DNA of 64,000 nucleotides from Methanobacteriota archaeon (GTDB lineage Archaea > Thermoplasmatota > Poseidoniia > Poseidoniales > Poseidoniaceae). The translations under genes were made by a program, and so were the position numbers. The notes under the pieces are model-generated. The model ran no database searches, was not told the origin of the DNA, and worked only from the letters and a program-made list of their open reading frames with translations. Below, piece after piece: positions 5,044-61,273 of the stretch (position 1 is the first letter of the stretch; the number at the start of each line of letters is the position of its first letter). The stretch is from positions 3,207 to 67,206 of the forward strand of contig PBMQ01000036.1 in NCBI GenBank assembly GCA_002722615.1, read 5' to 3'.

Positions 5044-5168
5044 GATTGTCCGTTGTCACACCTCCCTATCAATCATCGTGTGGGGGCTTGGAATTCCCTT
5101 CGAAACCAAGCAATTCCAGTGCTCAGGAGGCGAGAGGTTCTTGATGGAGAAGCACGAGAGTGGTTCGG

Positions 5169-5600: not shown

Positions 5601-5606
5601 AGTCCT

Positions 5607-6050: not shown

Positions 6051-6121
6051 GAATGAATCGTTTCATGATTTTGACAGGCACATTCAAACCATGATTGAAT
6101 ACCCACTGTATGGGGCGGACT

Positions 6122-8116
6122 ATGCAAAACGGGGTTAGCGGTTGGTATGCGAGATTAGATCGATGCTTAAACGATAGAAAAACACAAATCGAGATGTGGC
6201 TTGATGCTTGGGAAAATTCCCTCCGAACCCACCAACCTATCGCTGCGCTTCTCCCTGAAGATTGGCCAACCCTTCCAGCAAATCTCTTGACCGACCCAGG
6301 CCACGTTCTCGACCATCTTCTTGCACGTCACGATGCTGAGTCTGATGGACGCTCACCTCGCGGAGCACACCCTACCCCTCCTCGACTTGCAGATTCAATC
6401 ATCTCATCTGAACTGCTTGAGACGACCATCCAGCCAAAGGTCAAGAAGCAGACAACAAACATGCATCTTGCAGACCTTCCTCCAGGTTTCCAGAAGCACA
6501 TCAAGAAACTCAACTTCCCTCCAAGTGAAGAAGAGGTCACTCTCGATGAAAGTGCTCTTGATGCTGTCAAAAACAATGAGCGAACAAGCAGTGGAATTCC
6601 TTTACCATTCTCTGACATGTCCTGCGGCGGTGGAATTTTCCATGCCCGTATGCTCCGAAAGCACAGTGAATTGTTTGAAGGACAAAGTTCTGAATTGCGC
6701 AAAGAAGACACAGAACGTTTGCTCCGTGGTTTTCAACTCGTCGACGTCGACGAACTGGTCGTTACATCAACCCGTAGGCGGTTGCTGCTTGAAGCCATTC
6801 GCCTCGATCTCGTCGCCTTATCCGGTGAACAAGAAGGAAAATTGAATCGAAGTATAGCAGAAGAAATTCTCGAAGAGAACATCATCTGTTCCGACACACT
6901 TCAGAAAGATTGGCCATGGGGCGAATCTCCTCGCCTCATCATCTCCAACCCTCCTTGGTTACGAATCAAGGATCGGTTCAGAGGAATGGAAGACGGTTCC
7001 CAGCGTCGTAAAGATTTGAGCGAGAAGCTTCGAAGCCTAACCAACCCTGATGGTCCTCGTTTCTCAACCATGCGTGGAAACGTCAATCTCTACCGACTCT
7101 TCATCGAGCGAGGAATGCAAGTTCTTTCACAGGAAGGAAAGATGCGTATCGTCGCTCCAGACAGCCTCCTGCGCGAACAATCCTCCCACCCTCTGAGAAA
7201 ACTTCTCGTCGAGAAGCACTCATGGAATGAAGTCTGGGCCATTGAAGAGGCTAATCTCTTGTTCCCGGGTATGACTCAAGGTGTTGCAATTCTTGGAATT
7301 TCATCGACGCCAAACGGTACACAAAGCCTGAAGATCATTGGCCCGGTTACACGTTCCGATCTCCGCCGTGTTGGGACTGGGCTCTCGTCTCGAGTGCCTG
7401 CCTTCTCTCTCAATCAAACCCAATGGGTTCAGTGGGCAAGAAATACATGGGCTGTTCCACGATTACCACGTGATCAAATCGAAAGGAAGAACATTCTCAA
7501 GATTCTTGACAATATGTCGCAACTGCCAAGGCTTGGTGACCGTGAGCATTGGCTTGCTACCCAAGAACAAACAGTCAAGGTACGTGTTGGAGAGATTGAT
7601 CAAACTGCCCACTCCAATAACATCTCCAGTTGGGACAAAACAAAGTCATCACGCCCGTTCATTCGTGGCGTACACTTCACTGAAGACGAAGCGGGAGGCG
7701 TTTACATCCGTCACCCGGCCTTCCGTAAGGACATCCCCTCTCGAGCAAATGAACGCCAATTGGCTATGTGGTCAGGAAAAAGCGAAGTGCAATCCTATGG
7801 CCCTCGCCTCGCATGTCAAGCCATCGTCAATGCACACCAAGAGCGCCGACTACGCTGGGCAGTCATACCAAAGGGTTGCATTCTCGGAAACAGTGTAAAC
7901 CACATCGAAATGAATCAGGCAATCCTCAATCGACTTGCTGCAACAAAAGGTGATTTACAGAAAGCACTCGAGTGGATGTGTGAACAACTTAACCAACGCG
8001 ATCTCGATGATTGGGCGAAGGCTTGGTCTGCAAACAACAACGTCAATAATTACGAACTGGAAATGCTTCCACTTCAACTTGGAGTCGAAACCGGTATTGA
8101 AGAGGTCTTGAACTGA
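6122..8116 (+). CDS. N6-adenine DNA methyltransferase, Eco57I/type IIG-like gamma-class, no nuclease domain seen
   Basis: 'RGAHPTPPRLA' (x-x-T-P motif X-like), 'FSDMSCGGGIFH' (SAM motif I-like), 'LIISNPPWLRIKD' (motif IV NPPW), 'GNVNLYRLFIERGMQVLSQEGKMRIVAP'. About 300 aa of C-terminal presumed target-recognition region. Start ambiguous: TTG 6095, ATG 6110 or ATG 6122. Confidence 0.65.
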   Translation: MQNGVSGWYARLDRCLNDRKTQIEMWLDAWENSLRTHQPIAALLPEDWPTLPANLLTDPGHVLDHLLARHDAESDGRSPRGAHPTPPRLADSIISSELLETTIQPKVKKQTTNMHLADLPPGFQKHIKKLNFPPSEEEVTLDESALDAVKNNERTSSGIPLPFSDMSCGGGIFHARMLRKHSELFEGQSSELRKEDTERLLRGFQLVDVDELVVTSTRRRLLLEAIRLDLVALSGEQEGKLNRSIAEEILEENIICSDTLQKDWPWGESPRLIISNPPWLRIKDRFRGMEDGSQRRKDLSEKLRSLTNPDGPRFSTMRGNVNLYRLFIERGMQVLSQEGKMRIVAPDSLLREQSSHPLRKLLVEKHSWNEVWAIEEANLLFPGMTQGVAILGISSTPNGTQSLKIIGPVTRSDLRRVGTGLSSRVPAFSLNQTQWVQWARNTWAVPRLPRDQIERKNILKILDNMSQLPRLGDREHWLATQEQTVKVRVGEIDQTAHSNNISSWDKTKSSRPFIRGVHFTEDEAGGVYIRHPAFRKDIPSRANERQLAMWSGKSEVQSYGPRLACQAIVNAHQERRLRWAVIPKGCILGNSVNHIEMNQAILNRLAATKGDLQKALEWMCEQLNQRDLDDWAKAWSANNNVNNYELEMLPLQLGVETGIEEVLN

Positions 8117-21250: not shown

Positions 21251-24200
21251 TCACGCGTCGGCTTCATCACCGAGAACAGACATCAGTGACGACTGTTCAG
21301 CGATTCGATCCTTCACTGCAGCACGGCGGCCTCGGCCGACAAGATACAAGACACCGAAGAGCGAAAAGGTCAGCAAGACAATCATAGTTGGTAGTGCAAC
21401 TTTACCAGCAACTTCACCAGCAACATCCAAGAATGGGTTCGAGGAACCGAGCTCGGTTGAAATTCGGACGATATTGTCGCCTTCATTTGCCTCAACGATG
21501 GTGTTTCCTGGGTCGACAACGACGTAGACGTTCTTGCTACCTGCAGTAACTGGGTAAAGCATGTACAGTTCGATTACACGTTCTGTTTGAGAATCGTCTG
21601 GCTTGTCCAATGCACCAATGATTTGTCGCATGACAATACTTTCTTCATCACACATGTTGTTGTTCTTGCGAATTTCTTTCAACATGTCATCATCATCGTA
21701 CTCACAAAGAATGACTTCGATATCTGATGCGTGAACGTTTCCTGTGTTTGCAATCTCAATACGAATTGGGATTGATTCACCAACATCTGCTGAAGTGACA
21801 TCAGTTGAGGCTGATTTCACAACGAGATCTGGTGCACGTAGGTTGATGGTCACAATCTTCTCGTTTGAGTCCAACAGATCGCCGACCCATGACGCAGAAT
21901 CATCATGGTCGCCACCTTCCTCAGCGTTGCCCATCATCGAGACTACCTTGAGGCCAAGGCTTCGAGTGAGCAACTGTGCTCCTGGGTCAATCGATACGAC
22001 TGCAACCATGGTGTATGTTTGGTATGGGTCCATTTCCGGTAGCCTCCATTCATCAATGTCCGACAAGTACACGCAGCTGTCTTCTGGGTAGGATGCTGCT
22101 GTTGAGAGTGTTGTTACACAATCCTCCTCACTTTCGAGATCCAATCCAACTTGGCGAATCATTCGCCAATCGACATCCCAACCAGCAAGTGTCCCCATTC
22201 CAGGATCTTCGTTGACTGTAATGTCTGAGCCTGAACGGATGGATGTGTGATTGTCAAGGGTTGGAACGTCGGGAACGTTTCCTGCGTTTGTGATGTTGAC
22301 GATGAATCGTACAACACGGCCAGGTGCAGAAGTCTTGACATCGTTTTCTACAGTTGGGTCCATGGTGATTTGCATGTCATGGAATTCACGGACTGTTACT
22401 GTCAATGTTGTAATGTCCCGCAAGCGAGTCATACGTCCTGATGCGTCCTCATCCTTTTGTTCGGACTTGGTGTGGAAGACCACTGTGTAGTCACCAGCAG
22501 GGACTTGTTGTGGAATGCCCATGAGAACCTCAAAGGTTTGAGATGAGCCTGAATCGAGTTCTTCCAAGGTGTTACGAGGGATGGTAATGTCCCAAATGAC
22601 ATCGACTCCAGAGGAATCGGTTACACGTGCAAGAGTGTAATCGAAGCGATCTGGACCGTTTCCGTTGTTGCTAACTGTGGTTGGGAGAATGATGGCGTCA
22701 CCAGGATTGACGGTGAGCTGTTCATCATCTACGAGGGCGACATCGGTCTTGAGTTGGTAAACGTGATCAACGTCAACTTGCAGAATCTTGGCGGCTGAGA
22801 TCTTAGGATACCCTTTGAGATTTGCCTTGATTGTCACTGCCTTTCCGAGGCCCGCTGGGGCATCATCTGGCGCACAAATCTTAACCTTGACAACGTGCAT
22901 TCGATAATCATCGCCTGACATGAGAACCCACGGATAGGACACACCATCAGGGTTTAAGCTAAGTCCGTTCGGGAAGATTACTTCTGTAGTCCAATTGTCT
23001 TCATTTTCAGTTGTACCAGGGGTTGTAAAGACGAGGTCACCAGTATCGAAGTATTTCTCGACTTCAATTTCGAATACATGACAATTCGGATCCAATGCAT
23101 TCGGGGCATACGGAGCAGGCGTTACCATCGCTTCTTGGTCTGTAATGTTGAACACAATGTTGTTCGAAGAGCGGATTGAAACGAAAACTCCCAGTTCAAG
23201 AATATCGTATGTTCCTTTCTCGACAGACTTGACGGGTTCGCCTGCGGACCAACCCTTCAGCAAGATAACGAAGGCCCCTGGGTCTTCAGAGGTAGGGACA
23301 TTAATCTCAAGATTCTTGGTCACTGTTTGTTGTGGATCAAGTTGTACACTGAGCGGGAAGTTAACATCCCAAGCGAACGGCAGGAGCCACTCTTGACGGC
23401 CTTCTAAGGTCTGAGGATCCCAGAAGAGGAAGGTGTCAGCAACGTTTCCTGTATTGGTGATTGTGATCGAGAAAATCGCAGTTTGGCCCTGTTCAACGTC
23501 TGCTACACTGTGCGATGCATCAAGATCAATTCCGTGGACAACGTCCATCAGGGTGAGTGTTGTAATCTCGGAGCGGATTGCAGGGTCCTTGTAGGACTTA
23601 GCGTCCACTCGGATTTCAGCTAGCTCATCGGCGCCTGCTTGATAAATCGAAGGAGCCCGAACCCGGAGGTAGAATCGGATTGATTCTCCACCCTCAAGTG
23701 CGATTTCAGTATCTGGGAAAATTGCAGTATGATTATCTGCGAAGAACAGAGTTGCTGTCCAGTTGGTTGGAACGCCTGTAATGTTGAGTCCGTAACTGTC
23801 TGCCACCAAGTCCTTCGGACCCGGTGTTGAGTTATTCATTGTGAGATTGTATATGGTTTGTTCACCGGGTTCAATCACATGATAGAACGTCTCGCCATCA
23901 TCGAATTCAACATCGACTTGTCCAGTCAATACGTGAGAATAACAGACCGTAAATCGGTTGTTATTGGTCTCATCGTTACACTTGTTCGTATCCGACCAAG
24001 CCACGTGAGCGCCGCTACCCAAATCGTTCGAGAAGGCGGGCGGCATACCGATGCTTGGCTTGTACCCTGAATTCGGACCCAATTTGTTCGAGGACCAAGA
24101 GGTGATTGCAACCGTTTCCCATGGGTCAAGAGCTGTTAGTCCGTCGCCTTCGAGAGAAGTATGGTTCAAACGCACGTAAAGGAGTTCCTCACCTGCAGAG

Positions 24201-26260
24201 GTGTTTGCAGAATCGACCCAAGCAATGTGGATTTGGTTTTGATCGTCAGTAAGGAGTGAAGGGAAGACCGAGTTGCCGCCCCATGGAGCATTTGGTGGCA
24301 AGCCTGCGTTGGTCTCAACGTTTGAAATCGGAGTGTCGTTGATTTTCTTAATTGCGTAAGTCGAGAGTCCATCGTCGCGACCATCGAATTCACCAGCGCC
24401 TTGGAGGCGGAGTTTTGTGTAGTAAATTTCGTAGTTGACGTCCTTTTCAAATCCATAGTCTCTGCCGTCCATCCATGCAATGTGGGTGTTTCCTTCCATG
24501 TCAACACCGATAGATGGGTGGAATGAGTATGCATCATCGATTGTAACGCGTGTGTCGTTAACGACAACGAGGTGGCCATCGGCTCCTCTTCCAGTATCCT
24601 CAATGTAGGCGCCGTTCTGAGTGACGGTTCCTGAGACACCAGGTGTCCAACTTGGATCATTGTTCATCTTACCATATGGGTCAAGAACAGACATGTAAAT
24701 TTCTCGAGAATTGTTGGTTGAAATGTAAACCATTGCTTCGACGAGGAGGGCCATTTGGGCTGTATTAGCACCGCTTGATGGGAACTCATAGACTTGTCCG
24801 CCAGCATCGGTTGAACGTATGGTGTTACCAGGGCAGTTGCGCGCAGCCACACTCTGAACGCCATTCGGGCATTGTGAGAGATCTTTGAAGTGGGATTGAA
24901 CGTTAGTTGCACCACCATAAGTTTGTCCATACATGCCGACTGGGACGACGCCTGCAGTGACACAATTGTCGTGTGCTTCCTCAATGGAAGTAGTATCGTC
25001 AGCCTGTTGTGATGGGTCACCGTCTTTCGGACCTTCATCGGAAATAGGAATTACAATCTTGGTTGCATTTGGGTTCCACTTGTGATCGTCTTGTGTTGGT
25101 GGATTTCCGGGAATGTTACCATTAGAATCTTTCCATGATAGGCACGCCCAATTTGTACCTGGGCCCCAATCTTCTCCGGAGTACCCAGAGTATGTGTTTC
25201 CGTTGTAAACGGTTCCAGGAAGTTTTCGGATACCACCGGAGTCATCTCCGTCGACAATCCCTAGAGCTGTTGGCCGGGGGCCAGCGTTCTGGTTGTAGCT
25301 AGCGCAATTTCCGCTACTAGCCGCACCTGGCAAGGTGTTGCCAAGACCGTAAATGGTTTCGTACACGGTCATGTTTCCTTCCTCTAACAATGGCTTAATT
25401 CCTTGGAAGGAACCACTACCTGAAAAACTACCACCGTAAATGACAGTACAAACATCAGCCCATTCGGAGTACATCGATCCTGATGTATCGATGACGAAAA
25501 CAAGTTCAACCTTACCTCCACGCGTATCGTCCCATGCGATTTGGACCAAATCATTGGAGTCCACAACAATATCAGGGTGACCCTTGTGACCAATGATCGG
25601 AGTTAGAAGGGTATCTTCGAATAACGTGAGGACGGACCCGCCATTGAATTCTGGTTGAATCATGGTGTAGTAAATTTGGGGCTGGTTGAAGAACCGTTGA
25701 AGTTCATCATACGAATCCTGCCATGCGATGTGAAGGTTTCCTTGACTGTCAACGTCGATGGATGGCCAGTCACGGTCCTGAGCGCGCATCGAAATGATGG
25801 TGTCGTCAATGACTGAAATTGCGGTGTCCTCTGCAGCCATACCGTCGAGCGGAGCAAGGTACGGGTTGATGGACGTGTACATGATCTTGTGCTGGCCAGA
25901 TTTATCTGCCCAGACCAAGTGGATTCGGTCGTTGTCGTCAACGACCATATCTGGATGCCAGACCTTGTGAAGTCCGGGGTTTGTGATTTGGGTAGCGTCA
26001 ATAAGTGTTTCACCACGTGGCGAAATCATCGAGTAGTACAGGTGCTGCGTGTTTCTAGCCCATACGATGTGGACGTTACCTTCACTGTCCGATGCTACAG
26101 CCGCTTGACTGTCAGAGGCTGTTCCGCCGTCGACAACTCGCACTGCTTCAGTGATGACAACTTGAGATGCTTCCGCTTGTTCAGTTCCAAGAACCATTCC
26201 TGAAAATAAAGATAGCAGAAATAGACTGACGAGAGTTATCGATTTAGTTGTTTGACGCAT
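21251..26260 (-). CDS. giant cell-surface protein: signal peptide, 7-repeat propeller-like region with inserted vWA domain, multiple CARDB/Ig-like domains, C-terminal TM anchor
   Basis: Signal 'MRQTTKSITLVSLFLLSLFSGMVLG'. Seven 'h(I/V)(A/V)WxD' repeats. MIDAS 'VFVIDTSGSM' ... 'IVIPISDEGP'. CARDB-like 'ITNTGNVAD', 'ITNAGNVPD', 'IANTGNVHA', 'VSNNGNGPD'. C-terminal 'LPTMIVLLTFSLFGVLYLVGRGRR'. Confidence 0.8.
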   Translation of the reverse strand: MRQTTKSITLVSLFLLSLFSGMVLGTEQAEASQVVITEAVRVVDGGTASDSQAAVASDSEGNVHIVWARNTQHLYYSMISPRGETLIDATQITNPGLHKVWHPDMVVDDNDRIHLVWADKSGQHKIMYTSINPYLAPLDGMAAEDTAISVIDDTIISMRAQDRDWPSIDVDSQGNLHIAWQDSYDELQRFFNQPQIYYTMIQPEFNGGSVLTLFEDTLLTPIIGHKGHPDIVVDSNDLVQIAWDDTRGGKVELVFVIDTSGSMYSEWADVCTVIYGGSFSGSGSFQGIKPLLEEGNMTVYETIYGLGNTLPGAASSGNCASYNQNAGPRPTALGIVDGDDSGGIRKLPGTVYNGNTYSGYSGEDWGPGTNWACLSWKDSNGNIPGNPPTQDDHKWNPNATKIVIPISDEGPKDGDPSQQADDTTSIEEAHDNCVTAGVVPVGMYGQTYGGATNVQSHFKDLSQCPNGVQSVAARNCPGNTIRSTDAGGQVYEFPSSGANTAQMALLVEAMVYISTNNSREIYMSVLDPYGKMNNDPSWTPGVSGTVTQNGAYIEDTGRGADGHLVVVNDTRVTIDDAYSFHPSIGVDMEGNTHIAWMDGRDYGFEKDVNYEIYYTKLRLQGAGEFDGRDDGLSTYAIKKINDTPISNVETNAGLPPNAPWGGNSVFPSLLTDDQNQIHIAWVDSANTSAGEELLYVRLNHTSLEGDGLTALDPWETVAITSWSSNKLGPNSGYKPSIGMPPAFSNDLGSGAHVAWSDTNKCNDETNNNRFTVCYSHVLTGQVDVEFDDGETFYHVIEPGEQTIYNLTMNNSTPGPKDLVADSYGLNITGVPTNWTATLFFADNHTAIFPDTEIALEGGESIRFYLRVRAPSIYQAGADELAEIRVDAKSYKDPAIRSEITTLTLMDVVHGIDLDASHSVADVEQGQTAIFSITITNTGNVADTFLFWDPQTLEGRQEWLLPFAWDVNFPLSVQLDPQQTVTKNLEINVPTSEDPGAFVILLKGWSAGEPVKSVEKGTYDILELGVFVSIRSSNNIVFNITDQEAMVTPAPYAPNALDPNCHVFEIEVEKYFDTGDLVFTTPGTTENEDNWTTEVIFPNGLSLNPDGVSYPWVLMSGDDYRMHVVKVKICAPDDAPAGLGKAVTIKANLKGYPKISAAKILQVDVDHVYQLKTDVALVDDEQLTVNPGDAIILPTTVSNNGNGPDRFDYTLARVTDSSGVDVIWDITIPRNTLEELDSGSSQTFEVLMGIPQQVPAGDYTVVFHTKSEQKDEDASGRMTRLRDITTLTVTVREFHDMQITMDPTVENDVKTSAPGRVVRFIVNITNAGNVPDVPTLDNHTSIRSGSDITVNEDPGMGTLAGWDVDWRMIRQVGLDLESEEDCVTTLSTAASYPEDSCVYLSDIDEWRLPEMDPYQTYTMVAVVSIDPGAQLLTRSLGLKVVSMMGNAEEGGDHDDSASWVGDLLDSNEKIVTINLRAPDLVVKSASTDVTSADVGESIPIRIEIANTGNVHASDIEVILCEYDDDDMLKEIRKNNNMCDEESIVMRQIIGALDKPDDSQTERVIELYMLYPVTAGSKNVYVVVDPGNTIVEANEGDNIVRISTELGSSNPFLDVAGEVAGKVALPTMIVLLTFSLFGVLYLVGRGRRAAVKDRIAEQSSLMSVLGDEADA

Positions 26261-26349
26261 GGTACCACCTGTGTAACAAGAACGTGTATTCACCACTACT
26301 TAATCGCGACCCTTACGCGTCAGTTTCAAAACGCATCATGAAGCCGTTT

Positions 26350-30785: not shown

Positions 30786-32327
30786 TTAACTCGTTGAGGC
30801 AGGGATGTCGAGTTCAGAAAAGCGTCGAACACGTAGCAATTGACGGATTCTTTCAGTCCTTTGACGGCTCTCCTTAGGGAGTACATTTGTTCGCACGATT
30901 CTCGAGCCAAGGACAACTTCGTCATCGTCTCTAAGCGTAACCTGAACTTGCGCATCGCCCTTGAAACTTCGATCCCATGCAACGTTGACCCAAAGAACCA
31001 CAGTTCGCTCAAGATAACGCGGAAGCCAACTTAACACATCGTCTTCAGATGGGTTTGTCAATTCAATGGCCTTGAGAGGTGGCGGGCAGGGTGCAAGTTC
31101 GAAACGATGGTCAATCGATTGTGGTTCACCACCCGGGACTTGGACTTCGACACGGACGTGAGTTGTATCAAAGGTTTGGTTGTTAAGGGCGATAAAGAGA
31201 CTGCCTGAGCCATCGTAGCATGTTGAGTCGAGAGAGATATCCATTCTCCAAGGTGAGAGGAGGATTTCTGGAGCGCCTGAAAGAAAATCATTCTGGAGGC
31301 GTTCGAACAATCGGAATGCCCCTGGTTGCCATGCTCGCGCATGCTCAAGGGCGCGCTGAAGTGTACGCCAATTGAAAAATTCCTCTTCTGAAAGAAGCGA
31401 CCGGTCAATGGCATCAGGGGACATGAAATCACGTAATGAGTCGAGGACAGTTTGATCAGGTATGATGTCGGTTGCATTTAGGTGAAGCAAGAACAGGAGG
31501 CGTTCTCTTGCTTGGATTGGGTCAGTCCCAGGCAGGATGGTTTGATGGAAGCGTTGTTCCCACTCTGACCATTCGATTTGTGAATCCGGATCGAGGTGAG
31601 ATTGAAGCAGTTGCCCGAGCGGTGAACCCAATTGAGTTGGGTGGTGGGTCGGAGCATAATGAATTAGAAGCGGCATTGAATCAGCCTGTAAACGAATGTA
31701 GTATGTGGTCAAGATAGAATGGATGCTCAATCCGATTCCAGATGTCATCGAAATAAGCAACAACAAGTTCCACGCTACAGAACGGGGTGTAATGAGCATG
31801 GAAAGACAAAGAAGCGTTAGGGATGTTGTCGCTAAAAATGCACTAATGTTGTTTTGTCTTCTGCCATCTCGCAGACCTTCCAGGACTCTGTCCATGCCCG
31901 GTTGCGAACGTAAGGTGTGTCTTTTCCCATCCCCAAATCCCCCTTGTTCACGAAGCGATATTTTCGCCTCAACTGCAGACCATGTCGCTTCGCTTCCTGC
32001 GATGGGTGGTGTGAATGCTGCCAATACGGGAATCAACCAAATTGCTAGGATAAACATCGGTGAAGTGTACGGTAAAATGGATGAATCGATAACGAGAAGG
32101 ACGGCTGTTGTTGCAATTCCAAAGCCGACGACATTCCGGAATGCAAGGAAGAATGTGTTGTTGGCTATTCGGCCGCTTTTCATTCGGAAGCGCTCGCTTT
32201 TTTCCCAGGCTTCCCGTGTGCGTTCTAAGGGATCTTCGTTTCGAGCAAAGCCATGACCGTACGGATCGGGCAAGGATTTGATGGTCCTACGCGTTCGAGC
32301 AACAATGGATTCTTCCTCGGGCTCCAT
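30786..32327 (-). CDS. polytopic membrane protein, function unknown
   Basis: 513 aa. N-terminal half has ~5 TM helices; C-terminal ~270 aa look soluble. No recognisable motif. ATG 32327 lies inside the TTG-initiated ORF. Confidence 0.45.
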   Translation of the reverse strand: MEPEEESIVARTRRTIKSLPDPYGHGFARNEDPLERTREAWEKSERFRMKSGRIANNTFFLAFRNVVGFGIATTAVLLVIDSSILPYTSPMFILAIWLIPVLAAFTPPIAGSEATWSAVEAKISLREQGGFGDGKRHTLRSQPGMDRVLEGLRDGRRQNNISAFLATTSLTLLCLSMLITPRSVAWNLLLLISMTSGIGLSIHSILTTYYIRLQADSMPLLIHYAPTHHPTQLGSPLGQLLQSHLDPDSQIEWSEWEQRFHQTILPGTDPIQARERLLFLLHLNATDIIPDQTVLDSLRDFMSPDAIDRSLLSEEEFFNWRTLQRALEHARAWQPGAFRLFERLQNDFLSGAPEILLSPWRMDISLDSTCYDGSGSLFIALNNQTFDTTHVRVEVQVPGGEPQSIDHRFELAPCPPPLKAIELTNPSEDDVLSWLPRYLERTVVLWVNVAWDRSFKGDAQVQVTLRDDDEVVLGSRIVRTNVLPKESRQRTERIRQLLRVRRFSELDIPASTS

Positions 32328-32397
32328 CTCACTCAACTCGACTATGTGTAGCCCACATATGTCTTCTTCGCTTGCTCCACAATCAAACCAAGCAATT

Positions 32398-33673: not shown

Positions 33674-33835
33674 TCACTCTGCCTTGAGCGTCTTCTTCTT
33701 TCGGTCTCCGCTGCTACGGCGGAGTTTCATGAAGATCTTTGATCCACAATGACTGCAGTGGATTCCGTTTCGCTCACGGTCAAAGCTTTCGTGGGTGCCA
33801 CAAAGCGCACACTTGTAGTCTACAAGTTCCGACAT
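33674..33835 (-). CDS. rpoP: DNA-directed RNA polymerase subunit P (Rpo12/RpoP zinc ribbon)
   Basis: 53 aa from ATG 33835. 'YKCALCG...IHCSHCGSKIFMKLR' is the CxxC...CxxC zinc ribbon with the basic tail typical of RpoP. Confidence 0.7.
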   Translation of the reverse strand: MSELVDYKCALCGTHESFDRERNGIHCSHCGSKIFMKLRRSSGDRKKKTLKAE

Positions 33836-33887: not shown

Positions 33888-34508
33888 TCAAAGGCCGCCA
33901 ACAAGCGGTCGTGTCATGCGAATCTCGGTAGCTTGTGCAAGGTCCGTTTCTGCAATGGCGTTTGCATCAACCATCTGACCGTCAACGAAAACCCAGTTGT
34001 TGGCTTCCTTGGCACTTGTTGTGATTTCTTCCTTGGTCATTTCGCAGACTGAGTGTCCTGAAGCGTCTGTAATCTGAACCGTGAAGGTTTCAGATCCGCC
34101 CACAATGGACGGAACCAGTCGCAGGACGTTGTCTTGGCTGAGTTCGGTGTTTTCAATGGTGGCTGCATCAACCATTTGGCCATCAACAAAGAGCCAGTTG
34201 CCCCGGTTGTTTGTCAACTCGCCTGTAAGTTCTTGCTTCGTCATAAGCATGGCTTGGTCGCCTTTTTCGCTTGCTACAAGTACGGTGAAGGTTTCAACAC
34301 CTCCAACCATTCCTGGGTTGATACGAATCTCGGTTGCATCGTTCAAATCGATGGTTTCGAGTTCTTGTGCATTGACCATTTGTGAATCCACAAAGACCCA
34401 TGTGTTTTCGTTTGCTGACACCGTGTCTACGATGTCTTGACGGGTCATGGCAACTTGCTCATGGCCGGTCTCTTTGGCTACGTGAACTGTAAATATCTTG
34501 TCTGACAT
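33888..34508 (-). CDS. triple tandem ThiS/MoaD/SAMP-like beta-grasp protein, each unit ending in Gly-Gly (poly-ubiquitin-like precursor architecture)
   Basis: 206 aa from ATG 34508. Unit 1 (aa 1-70) ends ...INPGMVGG; unit 2 (71-138) ends ...LVPSIVGG; unit 3 (139-205) ends ...MTRPLVGG, followed by Leu and stop. Conserved 'TFTV', 'MTKxE', 'NWxFVDGQMVDA', 'RxxPxxVGG'. Confidence 0.7.
   Translation of the reverse strand: MSDKIFTVHVAKETGHEQVAMTRQDIVDTVSANENTWVFVDSQMVNAQELETIDLNDATEIRINPGMVGGVETFTVLVASEKGDQAMLMTKQELTGELTNNRGNWLFVDGQMVDAATIENTELSQDNVLRLVPSIVGGSETFTVQITDASGHSVCEMTKEEITTSAKEANNWVFVDGQMVDANAIAETDLAQATEIRMTRPLVGGL
33891..34508 (-). repeat. in-frame tandem triplication, 3 x ~204-210 nt (units ~34299-34508, 34095-34298, 33891-34094)
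   Basis: Units share ~40-45% aa identity by eye. The DNA copies are clearly diverged, so this is an old duplication and not an assembly artefact. Confidence 0.8.
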
Positions 34509-34540
34509 TGTTCTTCCTCGCAATCTTTGAATTTCCACAG

Positions 34541-34548
34541 TATATTAA
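34541..34548. promoter_or_regulatory. TATA-box-like element (TATATTAA) in the short divergent spacer between the triple-Ubl gene and guaA-A
   Basis: Only A/T-rich octamer between ATG 34508 (minus) and ATG 34565/34598 (plus). About 33 nt from the minus-strand ATG and about 50 nt from ATG 34598. Confidence 0.3.
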
Positions 34549-34597
34549 TCGCGACAAAGTCGGCATGTTCAAGGATGTTCTCGATGCAAGGAATTTC

Positions 34598-35191
34598 ATG
34601 GGCGAGGATACACCTCTTGTCATCGATGTTGTTGACAACGGCGGACAGTGGACACATCGTGAATGGAGGATGTTGAAGTATCTTAAAGTCGACACTCAAA
34701 TTATCACGAACGACACCCCTGTCGATCAACTGCGAGAACTTGATGGTCTCATTCTCTCAGGCGGTGCAGCTCGTATCGGTCTTTCCGGTGAATTGGGGAA
34801 TTGTGCTGAATTCCTCAAACTCGATGTTCCAATCCTCGGTATCTGTGCAGGCCATCAGTTCATGGCACGATTCTACGGAGGGGATGCAAGAGAATCCCCT
34901 ATCCCAGAGTTTGGAGCAATGGAAATAGAGCTTCACGATGGAGGTGGCAAAATCTTTGCCGGAACTTCTGAAACACAAACAGTATGGGAGTCGCACAACG
35001 ATGAGGTACATGTTGTGCCTGAGGGATTCTTCATCACTGCAAGTAGTCCTTCGTGTGAAGTCCAAGGCATGGAGAATGAAGACGGTGATCGGTTTGGGTT
35101 GCAATTTCATCCAGAAGTCAACGATTCGGAATTCGGAAAGGAGATGTTCGAAAACTTCGTTGGAGTGTGCCGGCAAGCCCGAAAAAACTAG
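34598..35191 (+). CDS. guaA: GMP synthase [glutamine-hydrolysing] subunit A (class I glutamine amidotransferase)
   Basis: 'LVIDVVDNGGQWTHREWRML', catalytic 'PILGICAGHQFM' and 'GLQFHPEV'. 197 aa, the size of archaeal split GuaA-A. An alternative ATG lies at 34565. Confidence 0.8.
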   Translation: MGEDTPLVIDVVDNGGQWTHREWRMLKYLKVDTQIITNDTPVDQLRELDGLILSGGAARIGLSGELGNCAEFLKLDVPILGICAGHQFMARFYGGDARESPIPEFGAMEIELHDGGGKIFAGTSETQTVWESHNDEVHVVPEGFFITASSPSCEVQGMENEDGDRFGLQFHPEVNDSEFGKEMFENFVGVCRQARKN

Positions 35192-36525
35192 ATCTTGAGA
35201 TTCGCTTGTCGAGCAAGAATCAAGATATGCATTGAATGTTCAAGCATTGCTGCGTTGGCCATTGCTTGGTCGAGATTTGCTCCGACTGCGTATGCTCCAT
35301 GCCCTCGGACGACAACGCAGCGCATTCCTCCTTGCTGCAGTGCTTCTGCAACTTGACGTAGGAATTCCTCTTGAGCATCATCATCTGGATCGACAATGAC
35401 GACTTTGCCAATGTGTTCTTTCCCAAGGACATCAATGGGTTGAACGAGAATCAAATCTTTCTCACAACTTGCTGCGGTTGTATATGGCCCTTGCATATGA
35501 ATACATGCTGCTGGACCTCCAGTCACTAAGGCAACTGAAGCCAAGAGTACTTCGTGAATTTTCCACTCGCTAATGGCTCCGCGTGGAGGATTTCCACCAA
35601 GGCGGCCACCGACGATTCCTCGTTCATCGAGACGGCTAAGCATTGTGGAATGGCGGGTGCTGATCATCATTCCTGGTTCATCTGGATGGAGCATGGAAAT
35701 GGCCCCCATTGTTCCTTTGATCAAGGATTCTCGGCTGAGTTGCCGCCCCATTCGAGCGAAGTCTGCAACCATATGTGAAGGGACAACAATATCTTCGAGT
35801 ACTACTGGAGGAAGAGGTGCTTCCTCTATCTCTTCGATAACCTCAACAGCACCTACAAGGCCACCACGAAGGCGTTCGATTTCTGCCGTTAGCCGGGCAA
35901 TTTCCATCGCTTGATCTACATCGACAGGTGGTAATTCTTCAGCAGATTCCTCTGTAAGAGTCTCTTGTGGTTCTTCAGTGACTACAGGCTCAGATTCTTC
36001 TTCTTGCTCTGGTTCGGTTTCTGCTACCTCTTCAATCTGTTCAGGTTCATCCCCTTCAGGTTCTGCGGGGGCTTCTTCAACAACCGGTTCAGAAGCTTCC
36101 TCTTCGACAATGGGATTTTCATCATTGAAAGATTCAGGTTCTACAGTCGCTTCTTCGATTTCTTGGGGGGCTGGTTCCGCTGACTCTTCTTCTGTGGAGA
36201 GTTCTTCCGTACTTGATTCAGATGGGGGTTCCGAAGGTGGTTTCCCAGGGGGACCTGACGGCGGCCCGGTTGGGGGACCTGAGGGGGGTCCTGTTGGGGG
36301 TCCTGTTGGGGGTTTGCTCGGAGGCCCTGTTGGTGGGCCTGTTGGGGGTTTGCTCGGAGGCCCTGTTGGTGGTCCTGGGGGTGTTGCAGGAGGATTTGAT
36401 GGGGTGGGCGGCGGTGATGTTTCGATACCTTCCATTGCACCAAATGCTCCGTCGAGCATGGAGCCAAGTGTGGCTTCTTCTGCTTGTTCTCTGGCCTCTT
36501 CTGCAGAAGTCTTCTTGGTCGCCAT
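35188..36525 (-). CDS. class II aldolase/adducin-head-domain protein with Pro-rich repeat and acidic N-terminal extension
   Basis: C-terminal ~210 aa: 'GAISMLHPDEPGMMISTRHS', 'AISEWKIHEVL', 'ACIHMQGPYTTAAS', 'VVVRGHGAYAVGANLDQAMANAAMLEHS'. N-terminus has PPTGPPSK-type repeats (aa 38-102) followed by a ~110-aa acidic stretch (E-rich, with abundant P, T, V, A). Confidence 0.7.
   Translation of the reverse strand: MATKKTSAEEAREQAEEATLGSMLDGAFGAMEGIETSPPPTPSNPPATPPGPPTGPPSKPPTGPPTGPPSKPPTGPPTGPPSGPPTGPPSGPPGKPPSEPPSESSTEELSTEEESAEPAPQEIEEATVEPESFNDENPIVEEEASEPVVEEAPAEPEGDEPEQIEEVAETEPEQEEESEPVVTEEPQETLTEESAEELPPVDVDQAMEIARLTAEIERLRGGLVGAVEVIEEIEEAPLPPVVLEDIVVPSHMVADFARMGRQLSRESLIKGTMGAISMLHPDEPGMMISTRHSTMLSRLDERGIVGGRLGGNPPRGAISEWKIHEVLLASVALVTGGPAACIHMQGPYTTAASCEKDLILVQPIDVLGKEHIGKVVIVDPDDDAQEEFLRQVAEALQQGGMRCVVVRGHGAYAVGANLDQAMANAAMLEHSMHILILARQANLKI
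36220..36414 (-). repeat. coding low-complexity tandem repeat (PPxGPPxx)n
   Basis: 'PPATPPGPPTGPPSKPPTGPPTGPPSKPPTGPPTGPPSGPPTGPPSGPPGKPPSEPP'. The DNA shows reiterated GGGGGTCCTGTTGG/GGAGGCCCTGTTGG units. Confidence 0.85.
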
Positions 36526-60184: not shown

Positions 60185-60265
60185 TTTTCGATTAAAATCC
60201 TCATCGTATACAGGGGCTATCTTCAAACCTTATGGCATCCACGCTGGGATAACCGAGAGGTGTTC

Positions 60266-61273
60266 ATGATGAGCGAACGATTATATGTTGGAATTGACCT
60301 AGGAACGTTTCAGTCGACAATTGCATCCAGCGCTGGCGCTATGCATTCCATTGAGACTGTTGTTGGACGACCAAAAGACCCTGTTGCACGAAATTTCCTA
60401 AAGCGAGACGTTCTGTTTGGGGCTGACGCTCTGAAGAACAAACTCGCATGCAATCTCTACCGCCCAATGGCGGCTGGAGTTACACAGGATGATGAGGCGA
60501 ACCTCGCTGCTGCCAAGGCATTCGTTTCCCACCTCATTGAAACTGTTGATCCTGAGGAATTCGACGAGGTTTTCGGTGTCATCTGCTCTCCAAGTCACGT
60601 ATCGTTTACCGACAAGAGCAATCTTGTTGCAACACTCCGTGGGCAAGTTAACGCAATCATGGTCGTAACAGAACCGTTCGCAACTGCATTCGCTATTGAC
60701 GAAATCGGTGGTTCAATTGTTGTTGACGTTGGTGCTGGTACAACAGACATTGCTCGAATCCACGGAACATTCCCAAGCGACGAAGACCAAGTCACAATCC
60801 AAGAAGCTGGTGATTGGCTCGATTTGGAACTCATGAACCTGATCGCTAAAAAATTCACAGGCGCTCAAATCACTAAGGACATGGTCCGAAAGTGGAAGGA
60901 AGAATCCTCCTACGTCGGTGGAGATGTTCGAACTGTTGAAGTCTCACTCTCCGTTGATGGAAAGAGTCAGAACGTCGACATTGGCGACCTTATCCAGGAG
61001 GCTTGTGACTTGTTAGTCCCAAAGGTTGCTAACGCAATCAAGCGAATTGTTGCTGAAGCAGACCCTGAGTACCAACCTGTCCTACGTAACAACATCATCC
61101 TCTCAGGAGGAGGTTCTCTTATCGAAGGGCTCGCTGAGCGTGTTGCTCGGGAAATCGCTGATATCGGTGATGTAAATGTCTGGTGTGTTGAAAACCCATT
61201 GGAAAAGGTCGCTGAAGGTGCTCTTATGCTCGCAGGTCAAATGCCTGATGACATGTACACCTCCATCAACTGA
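60266..61273 (+). CDS. actin-fold ATPase, MamK-like
   Basis: Phosphate-1 'YVGIDLGTFQS', 'VVGRPKD', 'MVVTEPFATAFAI', phosphate-2 'IVVDVGAGTTDIARIHGTFPSDEDQVTIQEAGDWLD', 'DPEYQPVL', adenosine 'IILSGGGSLIEGLAERV', 'GDVNVWCVENP'. GAGAGGTG precedes ATG 60266. Confidence 0.75.
   Translation: MMSERLYVGIDLGTFQSTIASSAGAMHSIETVVGRPKDPVARNFLKRDVLFGADALKNKLACNLYRPMAAGVTQDDEANLAAAKAFVSHLIETVDPEEFDEVFGVICSPSHVSFTDKSNLVATLRGQVNAIMVVTEPFATAFAIDEIGGSIVVDVGAGTTDIARIHGTFPSDEDQVTIQEAGDWLDLELMNLIAKKFTGAQITKDMVRKWKEESSYVGGDVRTVEVSLSVDGKSQNVDIGDLIQEACDLLVPKVANAIKRIVAEADPEYQPVLRNNIILSGGGSLIEGLAERVAREIADIGDVNVWCVENPLEKVAEGALMLAGQMPDDMYTSIN

What the first reader, a model, noticed from the sequence alone, without database searches (positions are those of the whole stretch)
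33888..34508. Three head-to-tail ThiS/MoaD/SAMP-like units, each ending in Gly-Gly, plus a one-residue C-terminal cap: a polyubiquitin-style precursor in an archaeon
Seen directly: the 206-aa product has three ~68-aa modules. Unit 1 is MSDKIFTVHV...WVFVDSQMVNA...IRINPGMVGG. Unit 2 is VETFTVLV...WLFVDGQMVDA...LRLVPSIVGG. Unit 3 is SETFTVQI...WVFVDGQMVDA...IRMTRPLVGG, followed by a single Leu and then stop. The units are ~40-45% identical by eye and their DNA has diverged, so this is an old in-frame triplication and not an assembly artefact. Established knowledge: the pattern (N-terminal hydrophobic strand, 'V(D/N)Gxxv', short hydrophobic strand, C-terminal Gly-Gly) is that of ThiS/MoaD/Urm1/SAMP beta-grasp proteins, whose terminal Gly-Gly is adenylated by an E1-like enzyme. 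Eukaryotic polyubiquitin genes encode head-to-tail units each ending in GG, with an extra C-terminal residue that must be trimmed. Inference: this could be a precursor that is cleaved after each VGG into three distinct small modifiers or sulfur carriers. The archaeal SAMPs I know of are single-domain. Tandem beta-grasp proteins have been noted computationally in some bacterial E1/JAB operons, so novelty needs checking. No E1 or JAMM gene lies in this window.
Basis: partly seen in the sequence, partly recalled or inferred. Interest (0 to 1): 0.85.

Follow-up and report, generated by a model that had tools for sequence, protein, structure and literature searches.

The report
Three-unit ubiquitin-like array in marine archaea
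A conserved gene of the abundant ocean archaea Poseidoniales (Marine Group II) strings together three diverged ubiquitin-like domains, each ending in a strictly conserved Gly-Gly tail. Its relatives sit beside or are fused to an activating enzyme and a tail-cutting protease, so it may be a prokaryotic counterpart of the eukaryotic polyubiquitin precursor, but cleavage has not been shown.

Summary
A 206-aa ORF on the minus strand (34508..33888) encodes three 67-70-aa units that are 38-48% identical. Each ends in VGG, and one Leu follows the last GG.

- **Fold:** AlphaFold2 gives three beta-grasp domains joined by low-confidence GG linkers. Foldseek finds ISG15, di-ubiquitin and SUMO.
- **Conservation:** The gene is single-copy and syntenic (guaA-A | array | rpoP | RFC) in at least 26 Poseidoniaceae species. 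The eight residues before each junction are invariant despite synonymous codon changes, and the residue after each GG varies. One divergent subgroup has AG at junction 2.
- **Origin:** A related lineage carries a single 72-aa unit (…VGGNC) in the same slot, so the array arose by in-frame triplication.
- **Link to enzymes:** The units define a Ubl family with no Pfam or NCBIfam model. Other members are fused to a ThiF-type E1, or sit in Poseidoniales operons with a minimal E1, a JAMM peptidase and an AAA ATPase.

Best reading (about 0.5): a precursor cut after each Gly into three modifiers. Main rival (about 0.28): an intact three-domain Ubl like bacterial Bil/Bub Ubl3.

Not shown: cleavage, and presence of the E1/JAMM operon in the same genome. 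Verdict: a new variant of a known kind.

The parts
33888..34508 (-). Complete CDS of the three-unit Ubl protein (206 aa plus TGA stop at 33888-33890)
   Evidence: Orthologs of 206-211 aa were found in 140 protein clusters and 27 GTDB species loci.
34299..34508 (-). Unit 1 (residues 1-70), ending EIRINPGMVGG. This is the most conserved stretch of the protein.
   Evidence: HMM unit E 1.1e-27. Predicted beta-beta-alpha-beta-beta-(short helix)-beta. E60-I63 and P65-G70 are invariant in 49 orthologs. These residues show 2-4 synonymous codons per position across 19 species.
34095..34298 (-). Unit 2 (residues 71-138), ending LRLVPSIVGG
   Evidence: HMM unit E 7.2e-24; beta-grasp. The tail is invariant in 19 species of the 206-aa form. 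G137 is Ala in 9 of 49 orthologs, and G138 is invariant.
33894..34094 (-). Unit 3 (residues 139-205), ending RMTRPLVGG
   Evidence: HMM unit E 1.7e-27. The single-unit AF2 model has pLDDT 89 and pTM 0.73. P201-G205 are invariant.
34299..34304 (-). Gly69-Gly70 codons (junction 1; proposed cleavage and activation site)
   Evidence: Invariant in 49 of 49 orthologs, each with 3 codon types. pLDDT is below 50 at residues 68-70. The following residue 71 varies (V/S/A/G/I).
34095..34100 (-). Gly137-Gly138 codons (junction 2)
   Evidence: G138 is invariant. Position 137 is Gly in 40 and Ala in 9 orthologs. pLDDT is below 50 at residues 136-138.
33894..33899 (-). Gly204-Gly205 codons (C-terminal Gly-Gly)
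   Evidence: Invariant in 49 of 49 orthologs.
33891..33893 (-). Leu206, a one-residue C-terminal cap
   Evidence: The cap is variable in orthologs: L18, F11, I7, V7, Q1, or four residues (IKLQ, IDSV, IDLV). Family-wide tails are 0-8 residues.
34541..34548 (-). TATA-like box TTAATATA, about 37 nt upstream of the ATG (inferred archaeal promoter)
   Evidence: Read directly from the sequence. This is an inference and has not been tested.
33674..33835 (-). rpoP (RNA polymerase subunit P), 52 nt downstream on the same strand. Conserved neighbour; context only.
   Evidence: Pfam Zn_ribbon_RPAB4; NCBIfam RpoP models are best but below cutoff. Same position in L018 and L035.
34565..35191 (+). guaA subunit A (GMP synthase glutamine amidotransferase), divergently transcribed. 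Conserved neighbour; context only.
   Evidence: NCBIfam NF001975, 215.7 bits, above the cutoff of 198. Synteny seen in L001, L002-4, L009, L018 and L035.

Best explanation
The gene encodes a head-to-tail array of three diverged ubiquitin-like (beta-grasp) modules. They belong to a previously unmodelled Ubl family of marine Poseidoniales archaea and related marine-metagenome lineages. The array arose by in-frame triplication of a single capped Ubl gene at a conserved chromosomal locus (guaA-A | Ubl | rpoP | RFC).

The most likely mechanism is a pro-protein. A JAMM/MPN+ metallopeptidase of the type encoded in the Poseidoniales Ubl-E1-JAMM-AAA operon would cut after Gly70, Gly138 (or the AG variant) and Gly205, which also removes the Leu cap. 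This would release three non-identical Ubl monomers. A minimal, roughly 218-aa ThiF-type E1 would then adenylate each exposed C-terminal glycine for conjugation to target proteins.

Shown: the architecture, the fold prediction, selection on the tails, the family-level link to E1 and JAMM, and the single-unit ortholog.

Inferred: the cleavage itself, which peptidase and E1 act, what the targets are, and that the E1/JAMM operon is in the same genome.
For: 1. **Fold.** The whole-protein AF2 model has pLDDT 85. It shows three beta-beta-alpha-beta-beta-beta units and drops below pLDDT 50 only at the three GG tails. Its pTM of 0.41 indicates no fixed packing between domains. The unit-3 model has pLDDT 89 and pTM 0.73. 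Foldseek finds ISG15, OASL di-Ubl and linear di-ubiquitin (E 3e-5, prob 1.0), and SUMO, Mth1743, UFM1 and NEDD8 for one unit.
2. **Tails behave like Ubl tails, not linkers.** In 49 orthologs the longest invariant run is E60-G70 at the end of unit 1, and P201-G205 is also invariant. In 19 species with 79-97% nucleotide identity, the 8 residues before each of the three junctions are almost invariant (1.0, 1.0 and 1.12 residue types per position). Most of these positions carry 2-4 synonymous codons. The residue just after each GG varies (4, 2 and 4 types). Elsewhere the average is 1.4-1.7 residue types per position.
3. **Origin and modularity.** A 72-aa single unit ending VGGNC occupies the same syntenic slot in L009. 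Stand-alone or extra units follow the array in L006 and L035. Two-unit forms exist.
4. **Family link to E1 and JAMM.**
   - P0133 is two units fused to a Pfam ThiF domain (E 3.6e-17, above cutoff), followed by a JAMM gene.
   - In L007, P0134 (two units plus an unknown C-terminal domain) is followed by an E1 gene and a JAMM gene.
   - P0175 is one unit fused to E1.
   - Poseidoniaceae loci L012-14 and L044 carry a 92-aa Ubl (…LPGLVGG+MIIDECER), a 218-aa E1, a JAMM and an AAA ATPase.
   - The operon Ubls hit the window protein by tblastn at E 1e-8 to 1e-25.
   - All four JAMM proteins keep the E…HxHx7SxxD motif.
   - The operon Ubl itself needs its tail removed after LVGG. That is the same motif as the array junctions.
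5. **Internal GG kept in independent duplications.** P0133, P0130, P0129, P0125 and P0156 retain it. P0149, P0152/P0166 and P0179 have lost it, so it is not structurally obligatory.
6. **Precedent.** Archaeal JAMM/Rpn11 enzymes cut Ubl precursors and linear fusions exactly after GG (PMC6043591). The bacterial BubCD JAB domain cuts the BubAB pre-protein after its conserved Gly (PMC11601596).
Against: - No experiment or proteomic datum shows cleavage.
- The three-unit architecture and the identity of each unit are stable across at least 26 species. This fits an intact three-domain protein as well as it fits three distinct modifiers.
- Bacterial three-beta-grasp Ubls (Bil/Bub Ubl3) are not cut internally (PMC11601603, PMC11601596).
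- In the divergent 208-aa subgroup, unit 2 has AG, has lost the W-FVD-Q-V core motif, and is only 28-31% identical. Unit 1 stays at 66-77%. This suggests unit 2 may be decaying.
- The gene is not next to any E1 or JAMM.
- I could not show that the E1/JAMM operon is in the same genome. The listed E1 homologs (top 120 per search) showed no cluster whose longest contig matched in length any of the long contigs (up to 1.66 Mb) that carry the array.
Confidence: 0.5

Rival explanations
1. Intact three-domain Ubl. Only the C-terminal cap is removed, and the whole ~22-kDa tri-beta-grasp protein is activated at Gly205 and conjugated, or it self-assembles. This is how bacterial Bil/Bub Ubl3 proteins and eukaryotic ISG15/FAT10 behave. 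The internal GG motifs would be inherited relics or serve as hinges.
For: Three-beta-grasp Ubls are common in bacterial Bil/Bub operons and act intact. BubCD cuts only after the last Gly (PMC11601603, PMC11601596, PMC1779556). The best Foldseek hits are two-domain ISG15 proteins. Exactly three orthologous units are kept in every complete species locus. Unit 2 carries AG and a degenerate core in one subgroup.
Against: The internal tails are the most conserved parts of the protein, with synonymous codon turnover, while the residue after each GG is free to vary. That pattern is not expected of a hinge. The low pTM (0.41) alongside high per-domain pLDDT suggests no fixed domain packing, unlike E. 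coli Ubl3, where domains 1 and 2 pack tightly (PMC11601603). A single-unit ortholog occupies the same locus, and stand-alone unit genes exist. There was no Pfam Multiubiq or Prok_Ub match.
Confidence: 0.28
2. Non-conjugated beta-grasp scaffold or adaptor. A stable tandem-domain protein that binds partners, for example replication or transcription factors encoded nearby (RFC, RpoP). The GG segments would be flexible spacers, with no E1 chemistry involved.
For: The gene sits among housekeeping genes and not next to any E1, JAMM or E2. Beta-grasp domains are widely used as adaptors (PMC1949818, abstract only, seen in the results). E1 co-occurrence in the same genome is unproven.
Against: The terminal Gly is nearly invariant across the family (invariant in the 25-sequence alignment; at least 90% conserved in the 36-sequence one), and single-unit members end in GG plus 0-8 residues. 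Homologous units are fused to, or operonic with, E1 and JAMM. The conservation pattern of the tails is not that of a spacer.
Confidence: 0.12
3. Sulfur-carrier proteins of the ThiS/MoaD/SAMP2 type. After processing, the units would be thiocarboxylated and donate sulfur for tRNA thiolation or cofactor synthesis.
For: Weak sub-threshold matches to ThiS (E 0.01) and SAMP1 (E 0.004) over the C-terminal half of unit 2. The family E1 is of the ThiF/MoeB type. tRNA-modification genes lie within a few kb: TYW2/Trm5 in the window and TYW1 next to the L005/L015 operons.
Against: Both curated thresholds are missed. No MoaE, ThiG, NcsA or rhodanese gene is in the window or in the E1 operons. The operons instead carry a JAMM peptidase and a PAN/Cdc48-like AAA ATPase, which points to protein conjugation. 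The unit profile prefers ubiquitin over ThiS/MoaD among solved structures.
Confidence: 0.07

Closest known systems
Eukaryotic polyubiquitin precursors (UBB/UBC/UBI4)
   Same: Head-to-tail beta-grasp units, each ending in Gly-Gly with no spacer. One or a few extra residues cap the last unit. A profile of the archaeal protein retrieves polyubiquitins, with the match centred on the …GG|next-unit junction. Extra units fused to other domains (L035, P0133, P0134) recall ubiquitin-ribosomal protein fusions.
   Different: The units are 38-48% identical and each is individually orthologous across species (no concerted evolution), whereas polyubiquitin units are identical. The number is fixed at three. 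A single ubiquitin matches only at E 0.07-0.4, and there is no Pfam PF00240 match. The presumed protease is a JAMM, not a USP/UCH. Cleavage is unproven.
Bacterial Bil/Bub multi-beta-grasp Ubls (polyUbl of operon type 6E; BilA/BubA 'Ubl3')
   Same: [quoted passage not shown] The family occurs in operons with an E1 and a JAB/JAMM peptidase. Ubl pre-proteins are fused to downstream domains and cut after a conserved Gly (PMC1779556, PMC11601603, PMC11601596). The archaeal operons found here (L005, L007, L012-16, L044) have the same logic.
   Different: The bacterial Ubl3 acts intact and forms Ca-dependent dimers and filaments. This archaeal gene lies outside any such operon in a housekeeping neighbourhood. 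Every unit keeps the full tail motif under selection. There was no Pfam Multiubiq match and no PADLOC model match beyond a generic E1 Rossmann hit. No recognisable E2 or DUF6527 was found.
Archaeal capped Ubl precursors (Caldiarchaeum CsUb-pre/CsRpn11; CsSAMP/CsJAMM; Haloferax SAMPs with UbaA and HvJAMM1)
   Same: Archaeal beta-grasp modifiers with a Gly-Gly tail. Some have a C-terminal extension that a JAMM enzyme removes exactly after GG before E1 activation (PMC6043591). They use an E1 of the ThiF/MoeB type.
   Different: Those are single-domain proteins. The SAMP1 model is not matched (17.7 bits against a cutoff of 60). The E1 here is a ~218-aa minimal form, closest, though weakly, to PRTRC-type ThiF. 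I did not find a tandem array described for archaea in the literature I could search.
ISG15 / FAT10 / OASL tandem Ubl domains
   Same: These are the best structural matches to the multi-domain model (Foldseek E 3e-5 to 2e-3): tandem beta-grasp domains joined by a short linker.
   Different: The internal junction of ISG15 has no Gly-Gly and is not cleaved. There is no sequence relationship (13-17% identity in the structural alignment).

Membership tests
Ubiquitin-like beta-grasp modifier superfamily (Ubl) | beta-grasp fold (beta-beta-alpha-beta-beta-beta) | tested here: met
   AF2 models have pLDDT 85 and 89. Foldseek finds ISG15, di-Ub, SUMO, UFM1, NEDD8 and Mth1743. Single-unit E-values are only 4.5e-3 to 0.1, with TM scores of 0.4-0.5.
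Ubiquitin-like beta-grasp modifier superfamily (Ubl) | C-terminal glycine (usually Gly-Gly) at the end of a flexible tail | tested here: met
   G70, G138 and G205 are invariant in 49 orthologs. The terminal Gly is invariant and the penultimate Gly at least 90% conserved in 25 family members.
Ubiquitin-like beta-grasp modifier superfamily (Ubl) | Functional partnership with an E1-like adenylating enzyme | tested here: inconclusive
   Met at family level by fusions (P0133, P0175) and operons (L005, L007, L012-16, L044). Not shown for this gene's own genome.
Ubiquitin-like beta-grasp modifier superfamily (Ubl) | Covalent conjugation to targets, or thiocarboxylation | not testable with these tools
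   Needs mass spectrometry or biochemistry.
ThiS/MoaD (Pfam PF02597) and SAMP1 (NCBIfam NF041918) | Score at or above the curated model threshold | tested here: not met
   ThiS scores 16.8 bits against 22.5. SAMP1 scores 17.7 bits against 60. Only residues 98-138 match.
ThiS/MoaD (Pfam PF02597) and SAMP1 (NCBIfam NF041918) | Gene neighbourhood with sulfur-transfer or cofactor enzymes (MoaE, ThiG, NcsA, rhodanese) | tested here: not met
   None in the 64-kb window or in the E1 operons.
Eukaryotic polyubiquitin | Spacer-less head-to-tail units each ending in GG, with a C-terminal cap residue | tested here: met
   One subgroup has AG at junction 2.
Eukaryotic polyubiquitin | Units are ubiquitin (PF00240) and near-identical through concerted evolution | tested here: not met
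   No PF00240 match. A single ubiquitin matches at E 0.07-0.4. Units are 38-48% identical and orthologous unit by unit.
Eukaryotic polyubiquitin | Proteolytic release of monomers | not testable with these tools
   Inferred only from tail conservation and from JAMM partners of the family.
Bacterial Bil/Bub Ubl3 / polyUbl (operon type 6E) | Two or three tandem beta-grasp domains | tested here: met
Bacterial Bil/Bub Ubl3 / polyUbl (operon type 6E) | Encoded in an operon with E1, E2 and a JAB or DUF6527 protease | tested here: not met
   The window gene lies between guaA-A and rpoP/RFC in all loci examined. Only paralogous family members are operonic.
Bacterial Bil/Bub Ubl3 / polyUbl (operon type 6E) | Sequence membership (Pfam Multiubiq/Prok_Ub; defence-system models) | tested here: not met
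   Absent from Pfam results at E up to 10. No PADLOC Ubl match.
JAMM/MPN+ peptidase (for the partner proteins in related loci) | E…HxHx7SxxD metal-binding and catalytic motif | tested here: met
   E47, H85, H87, S95 and D98 are invariant in four proteins. The Pfam Prok-JAB match is only sub-threshold (E 0.0014 and 0.095).

The most novel reading that the evidence does not exclude
This is a genuine prokaryotic polyubiquitin-type precursor. A JAMM peptidase would release three different Ubl modifiers from one polypeptide. A minimal 218-aa E1 would activate them. Together with the operon's PAN/Cdc48-like AAA ATPase, they would form a complete, previously undescribed Ubl conjugation and unfolding pathway in Marine Group II archaea. 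That lineage is non-Asgard and among the most abundant archaea of the surface ocean. Precursor-array biogenesis of ubiquitin-like modifiers would then have evolved outside eukaryotes.
Probability: 0.4. Interest if true: 0.85.

Novelty: new variant of a known kind. Interest (0 to 1): 0.72.

Why it matters
Polyubiquitin genes, in which several modifiers are made as one chain and cut apart, are regarded as a eukaryotic hallmark. The multi-domain Ubls known in bacteria are used intact. If this array is cleaved, it would show the same biogenesis strategy in an archaeal lineage unrelated to the Asgard ancestors of eukaryotes, and with three different modifiers instead of identical copies.

Even if it is not cleaved, three results stand:
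- It defines a new Ubl family with no Pfam or NCBIfam model.
- It reveals a compact Ubl-E1-JAMM-AAA operon in Poseidoniales. These organisms are uncultured, globally abundant and had no described protein-modifier system in the literature I could search.
- It gives precise, testable predictions for ocean metaproteomes: junction-spanning peptides versus neo-terminal peptides, and INPGMVGG or MTRPLVGG remnants on lysines.

Tried and rejected
- **Assembly artefact or recent DNA repeat:** rejected. TRF finds nothing, unit DNA identity is 58-64%, and the same three-unit ORF occurs in 26 species-level MAGs.
- **Filing under ThiS/MoaD/SAMP:** rejected, because the curated thresholds are missed.
- **The strong polyubiquitin E-values (2e-22 to 1e-14):** not taken at face value. 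They sum many identical weak repeats of about 7.6 bits each, and a single ubiquitin scores only E 0.07-0.4.
- **Co-occurrence of the E1/JAMM operon with the array in one genome** (four routes, all uninformative):
  - NCBI locus-tag prefixes of cluster members.
  - A chimeric array+E1+JAMM query against GTDB genomes, which returned only array loci.
  - Matching 'longest contig' lengths between the E1 and array hit lists.
  - The 324-kb contig that carries the E1 operon.
- **Viral origin:** no relatives of the array or of the E1 in IMG/VR with the patterns used.
- **Known defence systems:** PADLOC gives only generic E1 Rossmann and AAA matches.
- **Internal translation starts at unit boundaries:** none seen in frame in the sequence.
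- **The two-unit (138- and 142-aa) variants:** noted but not relied on. They could be real unequal crossovers or assembly collapses across the shared FVDGQMVDA segment.
- **Uncharacterised operon components:** the 397-523-aa Cys-rich protein and the C-terminal domain of P0134 have no family match. An E2-like role is only a guess.
Full report
**1. Observation**

The ORF lies on the minus strand, from 34508 (ATG) to 33888 (TGA stop at 33890-33888). It encodes 206 residues. GG occurs at residues 69-70, 137-138 and 204-205, and a single Leu precedes the stop.

The three units are residues 1-70, 71-138 and 139-205. They are 38%, 48% and 45% identical pairwise. Alignment z-scores are 20-24 against 500 shuffles. 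Their DNA is only 58-64% identical, and Tandem Repeats Finder reports nothing. The triplication is therefore old and real.

A longer GTG start at 34538 is unlikely. It lies 3 nt downstream of a TATA-like TTAATATA (34548-34541), and orthologs begin MSDK/MLDK.

**2. Organism and context**

140 homologous protein clusters were found. Nearly all are 206-211 aa. The named ones come from Candidatus Poseidoniaceae, Poseidoniales or Thermoplasmatota MAGs.

A scan of GTDB species genomes returned 27 loci. All are Poseidoniales or MGIIa apart from two evidently mis-binned contigs.

The neighbourhood is conserved, including in the most divergent orthologs:
- class II aldolase-like gene
- GMP synthase subunit A, divergently transcribed
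- the array
- rpoP
- RFC small subunit
- a conserved 516-aa unknown protein
- a flavoprotein and a HIT protein

Pfam scans of about 50 window ORFs show a core-chromosome region with topo VI, TFB, aconitase, FtsY, prefoldin and glutamine synthetase. There is no ThiF, JAB, MoaE, UBC or rhodanese. A motif and tblastn screen agrees.

**3. Fold**

AlphaFold2 on a 49-sequence alignment gives pLDDT 85. It predicts three repeats of beta-beta-alpha-beta-beta-(short helix)-beta. Confidence falls below 50 only at residues 68-70, 136-138 and 204-206. The pTM is 0.41, which suggests beads on a string.

Foldseek against the PDB returns ISG15 (E 3e-5, probability 1.0), the OASL tandem di-Ubl and linear di-ubiquitin.

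A model of unit 3 alone has pLDDT 89 and pTM 0.73. It matches SUMO/Smt3, the archaeal Ubl Mth1743, UFM1, NEDD8 and ubiquilin. The statistics are modest: E 4.5e-3 to 0.1 and TM 0.4-0.5.

The units are ubiquitin-like beta-grasp domains.

**4. Family assignment**

Curated models do not claim the protein:
- Pfam ThiS: 16.8 bits against a cutoff of 22.5.
- NCBIfam SAMP1: 17.7 bits against 60. Both cover only the C-terminal half of unit 2.
- There is no ubiquitin, Urm1, Multiubiq or Prok_Ub match.

A profile search of 1.8 billion representative proteins found 156 relatives:
- Single-unit proteins of 66-100 aa, ending VGG plus 0-8 residues.
- Two-unit proteins.
- One three-unit protein with near-identical units (P0121).
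- Fusions to other domains.

The family signature is tV-vAD--GH…W-FVD-Q-V…R--P-lVGG. The terminal Gly is invariant in the 25-sequence alignment A3 and at least 90% conserved in the 36-sequence A4.

The same searches also pulled out eukaryotic polyubiquitins, with the match centred on the …GG|next-unit junction. The low E-values come from adding many identical repeats of about 7.6 bits each. A single ubiquitin reaches only E 0.07-0.4. I treat this as a resemblance, not proof of specific kinship. It is still notable that ubiquitin, and not ThiS, MoaD or SAMP, is the best solved-structure sequence match.

**5. Conservation of the junctions**

In 49 full-length orthologs the longest invariant stretch of the whole protein is the tail of unit 1. 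E60-I63 and P65-G70 are invariant, and only N64 varies, in one sequence. P201-G205 is also invariant. At junction 2, V136 and G138 are invariant, and position 137 is Gly in 40 sequences and Ala in 9.

I extracted coding sequences from 19 species-level genomes with 79-97% nucleotide identity:

| Region | Mean residue types per position |
|---|---|
| 8 residues before junction 1 (63-70) | 1.00 |
| 8 residues before junction 2 (131-138) | 1.00 |
| 8 residues before the C-terminal GG end (198-205) | 1.12 |
| Unit averages overall | 1.4-1.7 |

Most tail positions carry 2-4 synonymous codons. The residue immediately after each GG varies, with 4, 2 and 4 residue types at positions 71, 139 and 206.

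An invariant P8-P1 segment next to a free P1' is what a Ubl tail or cleavage site predicts. It is the opposite of a typical inter-domain linker.

The C-terminal cap is L, F, I, V or Q, or four residues.

**6. Origin and plasticity**

In contig L009 a single 72-aa unit ending VGGNC occupies the same slot. The flanking genes there are Lactamase_B_2, SSF, TP_methylase, TYW2, GATase, RFC, the 520-aa unknown, the flavoprotein and HIT. The array therefore arose by in-frame triplication of a capped single Ubl gene.

Other variants:
- L035 has a fourth unit (…APLVGG) fused to a ~140-aa domain as a separate gene between the array and rpoP.
- L006 has a stand-alone unit-1-like gene (…NPGMIGGF) right after the array.
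- Two-unit forms of 138 and 142 aa occur in several assemblies. They could be collapses.

All 26 complete GTDB-species loci nevertheless have exactly three units in one ORF. In the divergent 208-aa subgroup, unit 1 stays 66-77% identical, while units 2 and 3 drop to 28-31% and 43-45%.

**7. Link to E1 and JAMM**

Family members are physically and genomically tied to the enzymes a Ubl needs:
- **P0133** is two units fused to a ThiF domain (Pfam E 3.6e-17, above threshold). In its archaeal contig L005 (which also carries a TFB-like gene and TYW1), a 171-aa protein with HTHPHGHAYWSLTD follows it.
- **P0134** is two units plus an unknown 314-aa domain. A 210-aa ThiF E1 and a 141-aa JAMM follow it in L007.
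- **P0175** is one unit fused to E1.

The short E1 has homologs about 52% identical throughout Poseidoniales. One of them is annotated 'ThiF family adenylyltransferase [Candidatus Poseidoniaceae archaeon]'.

The Poseidoniaceae E1 loci are L012-14, and L044 on a 324-kb contig. They read, in order:
1. A 431-aa Cys-rich unknown protein.
2. A 92-aa Ubl of this family ending LPGLVGG+MIIDECER.
3. The 218-aa E1.
4. A 191-aa JAMM.
5. A 71-aa protein.
6. A PAN/Cdc48-like AAA ATPase.

The four JAMM proteins share the full E…HxHx7SxxD motif. The E1s share GxGGIGS and two invariant cysteines. The operon Ubls hit the window protein by tblastn at E 1e-8 to 1e-25.

The operon's own Ubl must lose an 8-residue tail after LVGG. 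A peptidase specific for this fold plus the …VGG motif is therefore implied, and the array junctions present the same motif.

**8. What is not shown**

Cleavage is not shown. The E1/JAMM operon is also not shown to be in the same genome as the array. Four routes failed:
- Locus-tag comparison.
- A chimeric GTDB query.
- Contig-length matching.
- Inspection of the long E1 contig.

Among the listed E1 homologs, none had a longest contig matching in length the very long contigs that carry the array.

**9. Comparison with known systems**

Tandem Ubls are not new in prokaryotes. Iyer et al. 2006 described polyUbl proteins in E1/JAB operons (PMC1779556). Bil/Bub Ubl3 proteins have since been shown to act as intact three-domain modifiers that form Ca-dependent filaments (PMC11601603). 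The JAB domain of BubCD cuts the BubAB pre-protein only after the final conserved Gly (PMC11601596). This makes 'intact tri-Ubl' a serious rival.

On the other side, archaeal JAMM/Rpn11 enzymes are known to trim capped Ubl precursors and linear fusions exactly after GG (PMC6043591). I found no paper describing a Ubl array or this operon in Marine Group II.

**10. Verdict**

The Ubl fold, the conserved Gly tails, the cap and a family-level E1/JAMM partnership are established. The ThiS/MoaD/SAMP label is not. Cleavage remains an inference.

I rate the precursor model at about 0.5 and the intact tri-Ubl model at about 0.28, mainly because the internal tails are under such strong selection. It is a new variant of a known kind, with interest of about 0.7.

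Noticed in passing
L013:97-3936 (also L012:3734-7573, L014:1489-5328, L044:2675-6604, L015:1477-4053): A T7-like single-subunit DNA-dependent RNA polymerase (Pfam PF00940, E 2.8e-45; 858-1309 aa) sits just upstream of the Ubl-E1-JAMM-AAA operon in several Poseidoniales contigs. One of these is a 324-kb contig. This is unusual for archaea, and it raises the possibility that the operon is part of an integrated element.
   Followed up: partly
L013:4370-9095; L007:5401-9608; L005:1202-4762; L015:8876-11768: A compact, apparently undescribed archaeal operon: a Cys-rich 397-523-aa unknown protein, a Ubl (single, double, or fused to E1), a minimal 210-218-aa ThiF E1, a 141-191-aa JAMM, a small ~80-aa protein, and (in L012-14/L044) a PAN/Cdc48-like AAA ATPase. 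No Pfam, NCBIfam or PADLOC model covers the unknown parts.
   Followed up: partly
L013:7333-7548 and L007:5401-5580: Small conserved proteins (59-71 aa) in these operons end in …EFSEEWG or …EFEERWG. A C-terminal Gly in a non-beta-grasp peptide next to an E1 could mark a second E1 substrate.
   Followed up: no
L035:4628-5275; L006:74-289 and 290-814: Extra Ubl units follow the array as separate genes in some Poseidoniaceae. One is a fourth unit (…APLVGG) fused to a ~140-aa unknown domain. Another is a stand-alone 71-aa unit-1-like gene (…NPGMIGGF), followed by a degenerate unit without GG.
   Followed up: partly
window 35188-36525 (-): The class II aldolase-like protein has a ~130-residue proline-rich, low-complexity N-terminal extension (PPTGPPSKPPTGPP repeats) that typical aldolases lack.
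   Followed up: no
window 21251-26296 (-): A giant 1681-aa ORF. Orthologs in L002/L004 carry faint CARDB/NPCBM_assoc/CLIPPER hits, so it is probably a surface protein.
   Followed up: no
window 5160-8116 (+): Two tandem TerB-domain genes are followed by a 673-aa Eco57I-like restriction-modification methylase. This may be a small defence or stress island inside the core region.
   Followed up: no
window 60260-61273 (+): An MreB/actin-like protein that also matches the archaeal Salactin and Volactin families.
   Followed up: no
L022 and L028: Contigs carrying the Poseidoniales array (85-86% identical to the window protein) are binned in MAGs titled 'uncultured Rhodobiaceae bacterium' and 'Salipiger bermudensis'. 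This is most likely mis-binning in public MAGs.
   Followed up: no
window 30786-32336 (-): A conserved 516-aa protein with no Pfam or NCBIfam match always lies next to RFC in the syntenic block (also in L001, L002 and L009).
   Followed up: no
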